A stretch of DNA of 64,000 bases, taken from NCBI GenBank assembly GCA_030603385.1, contig JAUVXW010000004.1:64001-128000 (forward strand). Reading direction: 5' to 3'. The translations under genes were made by a program, and so were the position numbers. Positions 55,481-57,801 of this stretch are shown in pieces. Below the pieces are notes generated by a model. The model had not been told where the DNA came from. It did not search any database and saw nothing but the letters and a program-made list of their open reading frames with translations. Source of the DNA: Promethearchaeota archaeon. GTDB lineage: Archaea > Asgardarchaeota > Lokiarchaeia > Sigyniarchaeales > SOKP01. Positions within the stretch are counted from its first letter, which is position 1. Every line of letters starts with the position of its first letter.

Positions 55481-56008
55481 TTAGTTAAATGTATCGTAAA
55501 TCTTTTCAATTTCTTTAAGGATTTTTGAATATAGAGCAGAGGATATCCTAAATGTAGTATTTTCTACGAGATGATGGAGAAAATTTTTACATTTTTCTAT
55601 ACCAACAAATTTTAGGCGTGTTGCTTTGATGAGGACACCTAAAGTACCCGTGACTTTTAAGTCCAAAGTCCTAGCAATTTCCCGTGCTGCTAAATCATCA
55701 ATGATAATAATACTTTCACCAGTATTATCCTGAAGTTCCTTTGCAAGGGCTAATACTGACGCTTCTCCGGTATGAATGTGTAATTCCTCTAGTCTATCAA
55801 CGAGTTGCCTATTTATTGGTTCCTTTAATAAAAGCCAACTAGAAAAGGAATCTTTTAAAACTGTAAATTCAGCAACATTGTCATCGCTTAATACCTCTTT
55901 TTTAATGATTAATGTGGTGTAACATTCAGTAAAAAGCTTTGGTACTAAAGATAATGCACCAATTTTGCTTAGATATATCAAAGGTGAAGCATTTATAATT
56001 CCAATCAT
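55481..56008 (-). CDS. DUF3368-family PIN-like protein
   Basis: INASPLIYLSKIG, GEASVLALA, IIDDLAAR, VTGTLGVL. Confidence 0.85.
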   Translation of the reverse strand: MIGIINASPLIYLSKIGALSLVPKLFTECYTTLIIKKEVLSDDNVAEFTVLKDSFSSWLLLKEPINRQLVDRLEELHIHTGEASVLALAKELQDNTGESIIIIDDLAAREIARTLDLKVTGTLGVLIKATRLKFVGIEKCKNFLHHLVENTTFRISSALYSKILKEIEKIYDTFN

Positions 56009-56020
56009 ATTCTTGGCTAT

Positions 56021-56320
56021 TCAATCTAAGGCATATTCAATATCTTCCTTTATAGCTTGTTCATCGTATCCTGATACATTTCGCTTTTTTAATTCCTCCA
56101 TCATCTTTCTTAGCGAGACCCCAGCCTTTTCCGCAGCCTTCCAGGCACTCATGTTTTTTTCTCCTACTTGGTTACAAAGAACTACAAACATTTCCTCAGA
56201 TAGACTTTTCTCTAATAATTGACGGATGTAGGATGATTTATCTTTTTTTTTTAATCTTGCCATTAAAAACCTTAACTTTTCATCAAGATCATCATCTATT
56301 CTTACTGATAGAATTTTCAT
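56021..56320 (-). CDS. UPF0175-family/RHH partner (putative antitoxin)
   Basis: LSVRIDD RHH-like start and SAWKAAEKAGVS, upstream of DUF3368. Confidence 0.8.
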   Translation of the reverse strand: MKILSVRIDDDLDEKLRFLMARLKKKDKSSYIRQLLEKSLSEEMFVVLCNQVGEKNMSAWKAAEKAGVSLRKMMEELKKRNVSGYDEQAIKEDIEYALD

Positions 56321-56364: not shown

Positions 56365-56553
56365 TTGCAAGGGAGTCATTTTTGGGGGGATATCTATTAT
56401 GATGAAAGCTTTGATGTGACTATAGATTCGCTCGATAATGTTTACATTGTTGGTTCTTGTTGTTGCAGTTTTGGGGCAGGATCTAGGGACATGGTTTTGC
56501 TTAAATACATTCAAGATATATTTAAATCAATAATTAATTTTAATCGAATCTAG
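56365..56553 (+). pseudogene. SBBP beta-propeller repeat fragment
   Basis: WG..YYDESFDVTIDSLDNVYIVG...FGAGSRDMVLLKY single repeat with no convincing start. Confidence 0.5.
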
Positions 56554-56891
56554 ATAGAGTATAATATGGAGATCATAACCCTATTACTAACAGACTGTCG
56601 AGATATATACGATTAGATAAAATTCGCAAAAATCTTGAATCTAAATAAGGAACAAGTTTTATTTTTAAATAATATTTTAAGTAATATAAAAAAAAATAGT
56701 AGTATAGGATATTCGTTAATAAGACTTGATATTTTGGAAGTACAATCGAAAAGAAAATGAGAAATATTATAAGAAAAATTTAAATATAGAAATTTTTTTT
56801 TTGAGATAAAGCCTATTGTAATCATTTTCTTAGTTTGGAATTTTGTCGTTTATTTTTTTGTATTTTTTTCCCCATAAAATTAAGTATGGGC

Positions 56892-56906
56892 AAAAATCTT
56901 TAAATA
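56892..56906 (+). promoter_or_regulatory. Candidate BRE/TATA box for the histone gene
   Basis: AAAAATC followed by TTTAAATA (56899-56906), and a GGAGG SD at 56982-56986. The AT-rich background weakens this call. Confidence 0.4.
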
Positions 56907-56994
56907 TGTGGAAGATAATTATCTATATAACAAACTCTTGAAAAATAACAAAATTTAATAAAATAATAAAAAATTATTAGTGGAGGAAAAAAAA

Positions 56995-57273
56995 ATGGCA
57001 GGTTCTGAATATATTAGTTGGAGTCCTATTAGGCGCCTTATGAAACTATAATAATCAACTCGATTATTTCTTCAAAATAATGGCGCTTTAATCGTTGCTC
57101 GTGATGCAGTTAACGAGCTCGTTGAATGGATGGGTAGCTCCGCTGAGAAACTTACTAAAAGTGCTTTAACTTTAACTAAACACTCTAAAAGAAAGAAAAT
57201 CACGAGCTTCCTTTAGAATTCCTAAAAAAACGTGAAAAATGACATTCTTTTAGCGATTAAATACTTCAAATAA
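56995..57273 (+). CDS. Archaeal histone, 72 aa after removing two introns (exons 56995-57046, 57077-57206, 57237-57273)
   Basis: Spliced product MAGSEYISWSPIRRLMKHNGALIVARDAVNELVEWMGSSAEKLTKSALTLTKHSKRKKITRNDILLAIKYFK is an HMf-type histone fold (PIxRLMK..GA..V..DA; H.KRK.I...DI.LA). GGAGG SD present. Absent from the ORF track. Confidence 0.92.
57047..57076 (+). other. Putative 30-nt BHB-type mRNA intron 1 of the histone gene
   Basis: GCGCCTTA TGAA[AC^T]AT AATAATC AACTC GATTATT TC TTCA[AA^A]TAATGGCGC. Contains in-frame TAA TAA. Excision gives AAA CAT AAT (K-H-N). Confidence 0.85.
57207..57236 (+). other. Putative 30-nt BHB-type mRNA intron 2 of the histone gene
   Basis: CACG[AG^C]TTCC TTTAG AATTC CTAAA AAAA CGTG[AA^A]AATGAC. 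Contains in-frame TAG and TAA. Excision gives ACG AGA AAT GAC (T-R-N-D). Confidence 0.82.
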
Positions 57274-57543
57274 GTTAAAGTGAACTTAAAATTATAAATC
57301 TTTTTTTTTTATTATTATTATTATCTTATCGATAAAATTCAAGTTAAATGTTCCTTTAAAGGCTCTGCATGACAAAACACAGGGCAACCATGAGGAAAAG
57401 TTTAACAACCATACTTATAGTCTAATTCTCTAATAAAATAGCTTCTTGGATAGGATAAAGAGAGCAGATTGAGTACGTTAGAAACGAATCAGAAACACAC
57501 TTTCAAATGATATACAATAAATAATAGTCTTTTAAAGATAGAC

Positions 57544-57801
57544 TTAATGCTTTTGGAAGCTGGGGGATTTTAGATCAATTATTCGATGTTTGCTTGGGTT
57601 AAATATCCATTCGTTTTTACATTTTTTAGAACAGAAATAGTGCTTTGGAATTTTTTGAGTGATATTTATAAATACAAATTTATAAGGCCTATCATAATTA
57701 CTCTGATACTGTTTTACAGGTTTTCCACACAATTCACAATTTTTTTTCAAGATGATCATACTTTCATTTATTTCTTCTGCGGAATCTTTAAAAAATTTCA
57801 T
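57544..57801 (-). CDS. Small TRASH/YHS-like zinc-binding protein
   Basis: CELCGKPV ... HYFCSKKC. Confidence 0.6.
   Translation of the reverse strand: MKFFKDSAEEINESMIILKKNCELCGKPVKQYQSNYDRPYKFVFINITQKIPKHYFCSKKCKNEWIFNPSKHRIIDLKSPSFQKH

What the first reader, a model, noticed from the sequence alone, without database searches (positions are those of the whole stretch)
56995..57273. Histone gene split by two 30-nt bulge-helix-bulge (BHB) introns
SEEN: an unannotated histone with an SD and intact exons is interrupted twice by 30-nt, stop-containing hairpins. Intron 1 has central helix UGAA/UUCA, bulges ACU and AAA, inner stem AAUAAUC/GAUUAUU, and exon-exon outer helix GCGCC-UUA/UAA-(U)-GGCGC. 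Intron 2 has central helix CACG/CGUG, bulges AGC and AAA, inner stem UUUAG/CUAAA, and a weaker outer helix. KNOWN: the archaeal splicing endonuclease EndA cuts BHB motifs after the second nucleotide of each 3-nt bulge and RtcB ligates the exons. Such introns are typical of tRNA and rRNA, and crenarchaeal cbf5 is the established mRNA case. Applying that rule rebuilds K-H-N-G and I-T-R-N-D and gives a clean 72-aa histone fold. INFERENCE: this is a multi-intron protein-coding gene for a core chromatin protein in an Asgard archaeon, whose expression needs the tRNA-splicing machinery. Gene callers would miss such histones entirely.
Basis: partly seen in the sequence, partly recalled or inferred. 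Interest (0 to 1): 0.97.

Follow-up and report, generated by a model that had tools for sequence, protein, structure and literature searches.

The report
Histone gene with two tRNA-type mini-introns
A histone gene of an Asgard (Promethearchaeota) archaeon is broken by two 30-base inserts shaped like tRNA introns, and comparison with relatives indicates the tRNA-splicing enzymes must cut them out of the mRNA before the histone can be made; published work shows this for only one other archaeal protein gene (cbf5).

Summary
Window 56995-57273 (+) is one reading frame for a 72-aa histone, broken by two 30-nt stop-bearing inserts (57047-57076 and 57207-57236).

- **Junctions:** cutting after the second base of each bulge rebuilds His (C|AT) and Arg (AG|A). 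All 54 uninterrupted homologues in the genus have these residues.
- **More introns:** I found 15 such inserts (14 of 30 nt, one of 31 nt) at six positions in 10 histone genes of the genus, plus three more alleles in metagenome and NCBI contigs.
- **Shape:** 13 of 15 have a 4/4 central helix in the exact bulge-helix-bulge register, against 0-1 of 15 in shifted registers. A scorer blind to coding picks the frame-restoring junction first in 9 of 10 genes.
- **Selection:** stems covary. Genes that share an intron have dN/dS of 0.05-0.09 at dS about 1. One 99%-complete genome has only intron-bearing copies.
- **Machinery:** the genome has two EndA paralogues and RtcB. Its only RNase HII gene carries the same kind of insert in its catalytic motif.

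No RNA data could be obtained, so splicing is inferred and not shown. This scan has already reported such mini-introns on other DNA of this genome and in other Asgard genomes. I found no paper describing them. Confidence is about 0.85.

The parts
56982..56986 (+). Shine-Dalgarno-like GGAGG, 8 nt before the ATG
   Evidence: Read directly. The same GTGGAGGAA...ATG context precedes the other histone paralogues.
56995..57046 (+). Exon 1 (M1 to first base of the His18 codon)
   Evidence: Ends ...AUGAAAC.
57047..57076 (+). Intron 1, 30 nt, two in-frame TAA. One base of the 5' bulge, a 9-position stem (7 pairs), a 5-nt loop, the 4-nt central-helix strand and 2 bulge bases
   Evidence: It is the top hit of the coding-blind BHB scorer (score 39). 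It is precisely absent from the near-identical allele L172.
57033..57044 (+). 5' strands of the outer helix h (57033-40) and central helix H UGAA (57041-44) of intron 1
   Evidence: They pair with 57078-86 and 57071-74.
57077..57206 (+). Exon 2 (last two bases of the His18 codon to the first two bases of the Arg61 codon)
   Evidence: Pfam PF00808 scores 19 bits on this exon alone.
57185..57193 (+). 5' strand (CUAAAAGAA) of the distal 9-bp exon-exon helix that brackets intron 2. It pairs with 57245-57253.
   Evidence: Genes with this intron have helices of 9-10 bp by script, and about 8 bp in L170 by hand. The 54 intron-less genes have 3-7 bp.
57207..57236 (+). Intron 2, 30 nt, in-frame TAG and TAA. 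Central helix CACG (57201-04) with CGUG (57231-34), inner stem UU/AA plus UUUAG/CUAAA
   Evidence: Compensatory change C-G to U-A in the central helix in G007 and in the Loki GC14_75-type allele.
57237..57273 (+). Exon 3 (third base of the Arg61 codon to the stop TAA at 57271-73)
57301..57310 (+). Run of T after the gene, a likely archaeal transcription stop (inference)
   Evidence: Read. Similar T-runs follow the paralogues.

Best explanation
This is a working histone gene whose pre-mRNA carries two 30-nt bulge-helix-bulge-type mini-introns.

**How it would work.**
- In the transcript, the four bases that lie 3-6 nt before each 5' junction pair with intron bases 25-28. This forms the 4-bp central helix.
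- The intron's own hairpin (a 9-position stem and a 5-nt loop) forms the inner helix. Exon-exon pairing brackets the whole.
- The heteromeric (alpha-beta)2 splicing endonuclease EndA cuts after the second base of each bulge.
- RtcB joins the exons, and probably circularises the introns.
- Only the spliced mRNA encodes the 72-aa histone. The unspliced mRNA stops after 18 codons.

**Shown here:** the anatomy, its specificity, recurrence, covariation, selection on the exons, and the presence of the enzymes.

**Inferred:** the cutting and the joining themselves.
For: 1. **Junction residues.** The bulge rule rebuilds CAT (His) and AGA (Arg). All 54 uninterrupted A/B-type homologues of the genus read MKHNGA there, and KK[IV]T[RK][ND]D (Arg in most, Lys in a few) at the second site. 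Sliding a junction by one base changes the residue.
2. **Blind prediction.** A BHB scorer that ignores coding ranks the frame-restoring 30-nt junction first in 9 of 10 interrupted histone genes.
3. **Recurrence.** There are 15 introns at six positions in 10 genes. Of these, 13 have 4/4 central-helix pairs in the exact register, against 0-1 of 15 for registers slid by 1-4 nt. Of the 15, 14 are 30 nt long and share one architecture, and 13 have a 3' bulge AA^A.
4. **Pairing and covariation.** Central helix plus inner stem are 90% paired, against 48 +/- 3% in 2000 column shuffles (none reached 90%). Both-sided compensatory changes occur within sites 2b, 1b and 2a.
5. **Selection.** Genes that share an intron site differ mostly at synonymous sites. 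Examples: G067_C1 vs G069_C12 dN/dS 0.084 at dS 0.92; G007 vs this gene 0.061.
6. **No back-up copy.**
   - G069 (99% complete) has only intron-bearing copies of this histone type, two genes with two introns each.
   - In G000 this gene is the only copy of its own sub-type.
7. **Independent assemblies.**
   - The same two introns occur in G019 and G069.
   - An NCBI contig (L172) has the same gene with intron 2 but lacks intron 1 exactly at the predicted junction.
8. **Machinery.**
   - Two EndA paralogues of about 200 aa and one RtcB are present.
   - Asgard EndA is published as (alpha-beta)2 with the L1 loop that allows relaxed motifs (PMC5829648).
   - The cut between bulge bases 2 and 3 is the published rule (PMC2738675).
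9. **An essential gene.** The only RNase HII gene of this genome has a 30-nt insert of the same architecture inside GIDEAGRGP.
Against: - No RNA evidence for this gene or its relatives could be obtained.
- No database protein equals the spliced product. The best match is 93% over exon 2.
- Both motifs are relaxed. Intron 1 has two unpaired positions between the 5' bulge and its stem. Intron 2 has no helix next to its 3' bulge, and alone it folds no better than shuffles.
- In G019 one central-helix pair of intron 2 is broken (G.A).
- Genome-wide BHB scans with an ORF-joining filter gave no excess over a mirrored-geometry control. The motif alone therefore has little predictive power in this AT-rich genome.
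- G000 also has an uninterrupted close paralogue (C10), so this copy is not provably needed.
Confidence: 0.85

Rival explanations
1. The gene is a decaying extra paralogue (pseudogene). Inert 30-nt hairpins were inserted into it and are never removed.
For: G000 has an uninterrupted close paralogue on C10 and other histones on C45 and C4. Most genomes of the genus have intron-less copies. No RNA evidence exists.
Against: - The exons have no other lesion in any of the 10 interrupted genes.
- dN/dS is 0.05-0.09 between genes that share an intron, at dS about 1.
- G069 has only interrupted copies.
- The inserts keep a precise BHB register and covary.
- The same insert type sits in the single RNase HII gene.
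Confidence: 0.05
2. The inserts stay in the mRNA, and the ribosome bypasses or recodes them, as in phage T4 gene 60 or the mitochondrial 'byp' elements.
For: The inserts are short, contain stops right after the upstream exon and form a hairpin, which superficially resembles hop elements.
Against: - Introns sit in codon phases 0, 1 and 2, and the conserved residue is rebuilt only by joining a split codon (C|AT, AG|A, TT|A). A hop cannot do that.
- Reading the intron 1 sequence, I found no matching take-off and landing codons in the right frame.
- One intron is 31 nt and shifts the frame.
- The specific 4-bp helix and 3-nt bulge register has no role in bypassing.
Confidence: 0.03
3. The inserts are assembly or sequencing artefacts.
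For: The genome is a metagenome-assembled genome with 7% estimated contamination.
Against: The same inserts, with a few substitutions, are present in independent assemblies: G019, G069, an NCBI contig, JGI and Logan contigs.
Confidence: 0.01
4. The introns are cut by EndA, but splicing is deliberately inefficient or conditional. The introns would then act as a switch that sets how much of this histone paralogue is made.
For: - The motifs of this gene are relaxed, so they are possibly poorer substrates.
- Intron-bearing and intron-less paralogues coexist.
- Histone paralogues are a hotspot, with six sites in about 70 codons.
Against: Nothing here measures efficiency. The same intron type interrupts housekeeping genes such as RNase HII, where a switch is not obviously useful.
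Confidence: 0.06

Closest known systems
BHB intron in the cbf5 (pseudouridine synthase) pre-mRNA of Crenarchaeota (Watanabe 2002; Yoshinari 2006; Yokobori 2009, PMC2738675)
   Same: - A protein-coding mRNA is interrupted by a short intron.
- The exon-intron borders form a mostly relaxed bulge-helix-bulge.
- The cut lies between bulge bases 2 and 3.
- It depends on a hetero-oligomeric EndA.
- Presence and absence vary among relatives.
   Different: - Different phylum (Asgard/Promethearchaeota) and different gene (histone).
- Two introns in one 72-codon gene, and six intron positions in the gene family within one genus.
- A uniform 30-nt architecture.
- cbf5 has one site, and its splicing was confirmed by cDNA. 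Here splicing is only inferred.
Archaeal tRNA and rRNA BHB introns, including the many non-canonical introns of Asgard tRNA genes (Marck and Grosjean 2003; bioRxiv 10.64898/2026.10.13.758758)
   Same: The same motif geometry and presumably the same enzymes. Half of the motif is exon sequence, so introns sit only where the exon can pair. This genome's tRNA genes are themselves heavily interrupted: ARAGORN finds only 22.
   Different: The host is an mRNA. The exon strand is constrained by codons and the outer helix is often weak. The product must keep a reading frame.
BHB motif in the 5' UTR of a Haloferax volcanii mRNA cut by EndA (PMC7714728)
   Same: EndA acts on an mRNA. I did not read it in full.
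   Different: That site is in an untranslated region, in an organism with an alpha'2-type EndA according to PMC5829648. It does not interrupt a coding frame.
Archaeal histones of the HMfB type (Pfam PF00808)
   Same: The spliced product is a 72-aa single histone fold. It is 85% identical over the aligned part to an uninterrupted paralogue that scores 37.9 bits on PF00808.
   Different: Known archaeal histone genes are described as uninterrupted.

Membership tests
Archaeal BHB intron (EndA/RtcB-spliced) | [quoted passage not shown] | tested here: met
   Both introns have a 4/4 central helix in the required register. Both are relaxed forms. In intron 1 the 5' bulge opens into a 5x2 loop. In intron 2 the 3' bulge has no closing helix next to it.
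Archaeal BHB intron (EndA/RtcB-spliced) | Cutting after the second base of each bulge yields a functional joined product | tested here: met
   It rebuilds His and Arg as in 54 intron-less homologues and gives an open 72-codon frame. The rule is confirmed in PMC2738675.
Archaeal BHB intron (EndA/RtcB-spliced) | Flanking helices h (exon-exon) and h' (intron) | tested here: inconclusive
   - Inner helix h' is present in all 15 introns.
- Central helix plus h' are 90% paired, against 48% in shuffles.
- Outer helix h next to the bulge is strong for intron 1 (10 bp with one bulged U in the MFE fold).
- Across the family h is only 52% paired and not above slid controls.
- Intron 2 uses a distal 9-bp helix instead.
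Archaeal BHB intron (EndA/RtcB-spliced) | Structure kept by compensatory changes in relatives | tested here: met
   Both-sided changes occur in 3 pairs at site 2b, 3 at site 1b and 8 at site 2a. The numbers of sequences per site are small (2-4).
Archaeal BHB intron (EndA/RtcB-spliced) | The organism encodes a splicing endonuclease able to cut relaxed motifs, and the RtcB ligase | tested here: met
   - Two PF01974 genes (99 and 71 bits) are present.
- One PF01139 gene (558 bits) is present.
- The (alpha-beta)2 type with the L1 loop is published for Asgard (PMC5829648).
- I did not check the L1 loop in this genome.
Archaeal BHB intron (EndA/RtcB-spliced) | The intron is absent from mature RNA (spliced reads, circular intron) | not testable with these tools
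No cDNA-like contig or protein was found.
Archaeal histone (PF00808, HMfB type) | Significant match to the histone-fold profile over the whole domain | tested here: met
   - Read through its stops, the gene scores 19.6 bits, or 21.7 with neighbouring pieces (cut-off 21.4).
- Exon 2 alone scores 19 bits.
- The spliced product is 85% identical over the aligned part to P0001, which scores 37.9 bits.
- The three-helix fold was not modelled.
Programmed translational bypass (T4 gene 60 or byp type) | Matching take-off and landing codons, with the coding sense kept without joining split codons | tested here: not met
   Junctions split codons in phases 1 and 2, and one family member is 31 nt long.
Group I or group II self-splicing intron | A catalytic RNA core of hundreds of nucleotides | tested here: not met
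   The inserts are 30 nt. Rfam finds no family in 56500-57700.

The most novel reading that the evidence does not exclude
The 30-nt mini-introns are a young, still-spreading class of endonuclease-dependent introns in Promethearchaeota protein genes.
- They are gained and precisely lost at many sites, wherever an exon can supply a 4-nt helix strand.
- Six sites occur in one 70-codon histone family within a single genus.
- Several core proteins, including chromatin proteins, could then be made only after mRNA splicing in a cell without a nucleus.
- Splicing efficiency may tune which histone paralogue is made.
Probability: 0.35. Interest if true: 0.9.

Novelty: new variant of a known kind. Interest (0 to 1): 0.8.

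Why it matters
Splicing of protein-coding messages by the tRNA endonuclease is documented in print for a single gene (cbf5), in Crenarchaeota. [quoted passage not shown] Introns come and go at many positions within one genus.

If confirmed by RNA data, three things follow.
- **Origin of the nucleus.** A long-standing question becomes testable: how does a cell without a nucleus cope with introns in mRNAs that ribosomes can reach during transcription? This argument is central to intron-invasion models of the origin of the nucleus (my own knowledge: Martin and Koonin 2006).
- **Annotation.** Gene callers miss or truncate such genes. Surveys of Asgard histones and other proteins therefore undercount them. 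One example is the 62-aa 'hypothetical protein' LCGC14_1046730 of the original Loki metagenome.
- **Intron evolution.** The family offers a natural system for studying the gain and precise loss of endonuclease-type introns.

Tried and rejected
- **cDNA-like records.** I searched the protein collection with exon 2.
  - No hit was 100% identical.
  - The best candidate for a relative, P0030 (70/71 identical to the spliced G069:C12 product), turned out to be genomic DNA of an intron-less orthologue with matching flanks, not cDNA.
- **Strict genome-wide BHB scan.** With 10 forced pairs and intron lengths of 14-60 nt it gave 38,914 hits, against 38,630 for a mirrored-geometry control. An ORF-joining filter gave 404 against 435.
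- **Looser genome-wide scan.** With a 4/4 central helix and an inner stem of at least 7 of 8 pairs, it gave 126 against 98 at 60 or more open codons. That is not significant.
  - The motif alone cannot census such introns in this AT-rich genome.
  - The strict scan misses even the histone introns, because their outer helices are bulged.
- **Sequence copies.** blastn-short of the 15 introns against the genome found no further copies beyond noise. They are not a sequence-conserved repeat family.
- **MAFFT alignment of the 14 intron regions (A1).** It shifted the registers and was not used for pair counts, which I made on an ungapped structural alignment by script.
- **False leads.**
  - The 56-aa database proteins starting MKHNGA looked like a seventh intron site. 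They are mis-called starts of intact genes.
  - A BHB-like hit at window 51266 (-) in a ferredoxin-like gene is a false alarm, because the ORF is continuous.
- **Other scans.** Rfam, the sigma-70 promoter scan and the terminator scan gave nothing relevant.
- **Other readings.** Translational bypass, pseudogene and assembly artefact were considered and are listed as rivals.

Full report
**1. The observation**

Window 56995-57273 (+) is a single reading frame. It starts at an ATG seven bases after GGAGG and ends at TAA. Four stops lie within two 30-nt segments and interrupt it. No ORF of 60 aa or more exists here.

The parts are:
- exon 1: 56995-57046;
- intron 1: 57047-57076;
- exon 2: 57077-57206;
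- intron 2: 57207-57236;
- exon 3: 57237-57273.

- **Intron 1.** With its flanks it folds at -17.5 kcal/mol, z = -5.0.
- **Intron 2.** Alone it is not better than shuffles, z = -0.1.
- **Two refinements.** The 5' bulge of intron 1 is followed by two unpaired positions. Intron 2 has no helix next to its 3' bulge, but it is bracketed by a 9-bp exon-exon helix, 57185-93 with 57245-53.

**2. It is a histone, and the junctions are exact**

Read through its stops, the gene matches Pfam PF00808. The genome has an uninterrupted close paralogue on contig C10 (P0001, PF00808 at 37.9 bits).

Cutting after the second base of each bulge is the published rule (PMC2738675). It gives C|AT = His and AG|A = Arg, and a 72-aa protein. 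I extracted 54 uninterrupted homologues from the genus. All read MKHNGA at the first site, and KK[IV]T[RK][ND]D at the second, with Arg in most and Lys in a few. Moving a junction by one base changes the residue, so the position is not free.

**3. The same thing recurs, independently**

I searched the 54 species-level genomes of the genus with P0001 and read through stops. I then fetched the interrupted matches. Ten interrupted histone genes with 15 inserts emerged.

| Site | Position in the gene | Genes |
|---|---|---|
| 1 | His codon, phase 1 | this gene, G019:C201, G069:C6 |
| 1b | Leu/Val codon after NGA, phase 2 | G041:C27, G069:C12, G067:C1 |
| 2c | after HSK/HAK, phase 0 | G069:C12, G067:C1 (31 nt) |
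| 2a | Lys codon of RKK, phase 2, in another paralogue type | G000:C6, G024:C23 |
| 2b | Arg codon, phase 2 | this gene, G019, G069:C6, G007:C128 |
| 3 | after RDD, phase 0 | G020:C1 |

- Every spliced product is a full-length histone.
- The 30-nt inserts share one architecture: 1 bulge base, a 9-position stem, a 5-nt loop, the returning 9-position stem, the 4-nt helix strand and 2 bulge bases, which add up to 30 nt.
- The 3' bulge is AA^A in 13 of 15.

Metagenome and NCBI contigs add three alleles.
- A Loki GC14_75-type gene (L170/L171) and a related allele from the SRR1555744 marine-sediment metagenome (L173) carry a 31-nt site-2b intron.
- The gene caller truncated the Loki GC14_75-type gene to the 62-aa protein LCGC14_1046730.
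- A near-identical copy of the present gene (L172, GCA_044345325.1) keeps intron 2 but lacks intron 1 exactly at the predicted junction.

**4. The BHB register is specific**

- **Blind scorer.** A scorer that knows nothing about coding, run over each whole gene with intron lengths of 15-60 nt, ranks the frame-restoring junction first in 9 of 10 genes.
- **Central helix.** At the junctions fixed by the protein alignment, it has 4/4 pairs in 13 of 15 introns. With the 3' partner slid by 1-4 nt either way, it has 4/4 pairs in 0-1 of 15.
- **Overall pairing.** Central helix plus inner stem are 90% paired. The figure is 35-46% for slid partners and 48 +/- 3% for 2000 column shuffles, none of which reached the observed value.
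- **Compensatory changes.** Both-sided changes occur within sites. At site 2b the central-helix pair C-G becomes U-A in G007 and in the Loki GC14_75-type allele. Three inner-stem pairs change at site 1b.
- **Outer helix.** The exon-exon helix next to the bulge is not a general feature: 52% paired, not above controls. The family is therefore best described as relaxed BHB (HBh'-like). The literature says only (alpha-beta)2 and epsilon2 endonucleases cut such forms (PMC5829648).
- **Distal helix at site 2b.** It is 9-10 bp in genes with that intron. In a hand count the Loki-type allele has about 8 bp. It is 3-7 bp in all 54 genes without the intron.

**5. Not pseudogenes, not artefacts**

- **Selection.** Genes that share an intron site must have diverged while carrying it. 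Their dN/dS values are:
  - 0.084 for G067:C1 vs G069:C12 (dS 0.92);
  - 0.094 for G041 vs G067;
  - 0.061 for G007 vs this gene.
- **No back-up copy.** G069 (99% complete) has no uninterrupted gene of this histone type, only two genes with two introns each. In G007 and G020 the best match is also the interrupted gene. In G000 this gene is the only copy of its sub-type.
- **Independent assemblies.** The inserts recur in separate assemblies with a few substitutions, which fall mostly in the loops.
- **Gene tree.** Intron-bearing genes are scattered among intron-less ones, needing at least 7 changes of state, or 3 if only well-supported branches count. The clade of the present gene has 100/100 support, with L172 inside an unresolved trio. 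This hints at precise loss of intron 1, but the support is weak.

**6. Machinery and context**

- The genome has two EndA paralogues of about 200 aa (C44, C9) and one RtcB (C39).
- Same-genus genomes are deposited as Promethearchaeota or Promethearchaeia MAGs, that is Asgard.
- ARAGORN finds only 22 tRNA genes in 3.9 Mb, 9 of them with anticodon-loop introns. This fits the heavily interrupted tRNA genes reported for Asgard (bioRxiv 10.64898/2026.10.13.758758).
- Earlier notes of this scan list similar mini-introns in other genes of this genome and report RNA-level removal in other Asgard genomes. I treated these as leads and tested one.
  - The only RNase HII gene (G000:C17) has a 30-nt stop-bearing insert inside GIDEAGRGP.
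  - The one junction that restores the motif has central helix UGGU/ACCA at 4/4, bulges AG^A and AA^A, and 8 of 9 inner-stem pairs.
  - The alternative junction has 0/4.
  - A proteasome-family gene on the same contig is also found in two pieces.

**7. How it most likely works**

- The pre-mRNA folds locally at each junction.
- EndA cuts after bulge base 2 on both strands.
- RtcB joins the exons.
- The unspliced message would give an 18-aa peptide.

The steps shown here are anatomy, specificity, covariation, selection and enzyme presence. Cleavage and ligation are inferred.

**8. What is known, and novelty**

In the papers I could search, EndA-dependent splicing of a coding sequence is confirmed only for crenarchaeal cbf5. 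Putative introns in other genes are merely 'predicted' (PMC2738675). None of the papers listed in five searches describes such introns in Asgard protein-coding mRNAs.

The mechanism is of a known kind. The following appear new:
- the host lineage;
- the gene (a histone);
- two introns in one 72-codon gene;
- six sites in one gene family;
- the uniform 30-nt design.

The scan itself has already reported this class on other DNA, including another histone gene of this genome. Within the scan this is therefore a further case, not a first.

**9. Limits**

- There is no RNA evidence.
- There are few sequences per site (2-4), and relatives are not independent.
- Motif-only genome scans showed no excess over controls, so I make no claim about how many genes are affected.

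Noticed in passing
G000:C6:1127-1367 (locus L004, intron L004:1297-1326): A second histone paralogue of the same genome carries a 30-nt stop-bearing insert after ...CGGAAGAA. It has a near-canonical hBHBh' motif: outer helix GGGUCG/C(U)GACCC, central helix GAAG/CUUU, bulges AA^U and AU^A, and an inner stem of 7 bp. Splicing gives ...HAGRKKLTLGDMDLAMTIL. This is probably the histone already reported by this scan (e1-5551249).
   Followed up: yes
G000:C17:18113-18742 (locus L179, intron L179:1524-1553): The only RNase HII gene of the genome has a 30-nt insert with a TAA inside the catalytic GIDEAGRGP motif. The frame-restoring junction has central helix UGGU/ACCA, bulges AG^A and AA^A, and 8 of 9 inner-stem pairs.
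   Followed up: yes
G000:C17:41819-42434: A proteasome-family gene matches the Pfam profile in two separate pieces (positions 1-61 and 96-189). This suggests one or two further inserts.
   Followed up: no
L170 (JGI 3300005253), L171 (Logan SRR7787540), L173 (ENA ERZ940452 / SRR1555744): The 62-aa database protein LCGC14_1046730 ('hypothetical protein', marine sediment metagenome) is a histone truncated by a 31-nt site-2b intron. The exon for NDILLAIKYF follows in another frame.
   Followed up: yes
L172 (NCBI GCA_044345325.1, contig JAZHCF015645204.1): This is a near-identical allele of the window's gene, 7 differences in 195 nt. It lacks intron 1 exactly at C|AT and keeps intron 2. The exon inverted repeat GCGCCUUAU...AUAAUGGCGC is still there without the intron.
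   Followed up: partly
G041:C27:36900-38350 (locus L046): Two histone genes lie about 870 nt apart on the same strand. One is uninterrupted and one has a site-1b intron. They differ at only 11 of 195 coding positions. This is a recent duplication with gain or loss of the intron.
   Followed up: partly
intron 1 of the window (57047-57076) versus the site-1b intron of G041:C27 (L046:1164-1193, minus strand): Introns at two different sites 13 nt apart share the core AAUAA..AACUC..UUAUU, with an identical loop. This could mean a common origin or a slide of one intron. With 30 AT-rich bases the similarity may also be chance.
   Followed up: no
G032:C1:600586-600786 (locus L041): A related family has an uninterrupted histone with a lysine-rich N-terminal tail of about 20 residues before the fold (MAKKKSKKPAPKKKKPASRASY...).
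   Followed up: no
whole genome G000: ARAGORN calls only 22 tRNA genes in 3.9 Mb, 9 of them with anticodon-loop introns. This suggests that many tRNA genes are hidden by non-canonical introns.
   Followed up: no
window 55481-56320 (-): Upstream of the histone gene lie two small overlapping minus-strand ORFs of 175 aa and 99 aa. By eye they look like a PIN-domain toxin and antitoxin pair. I did not test this.
   Followed up: no
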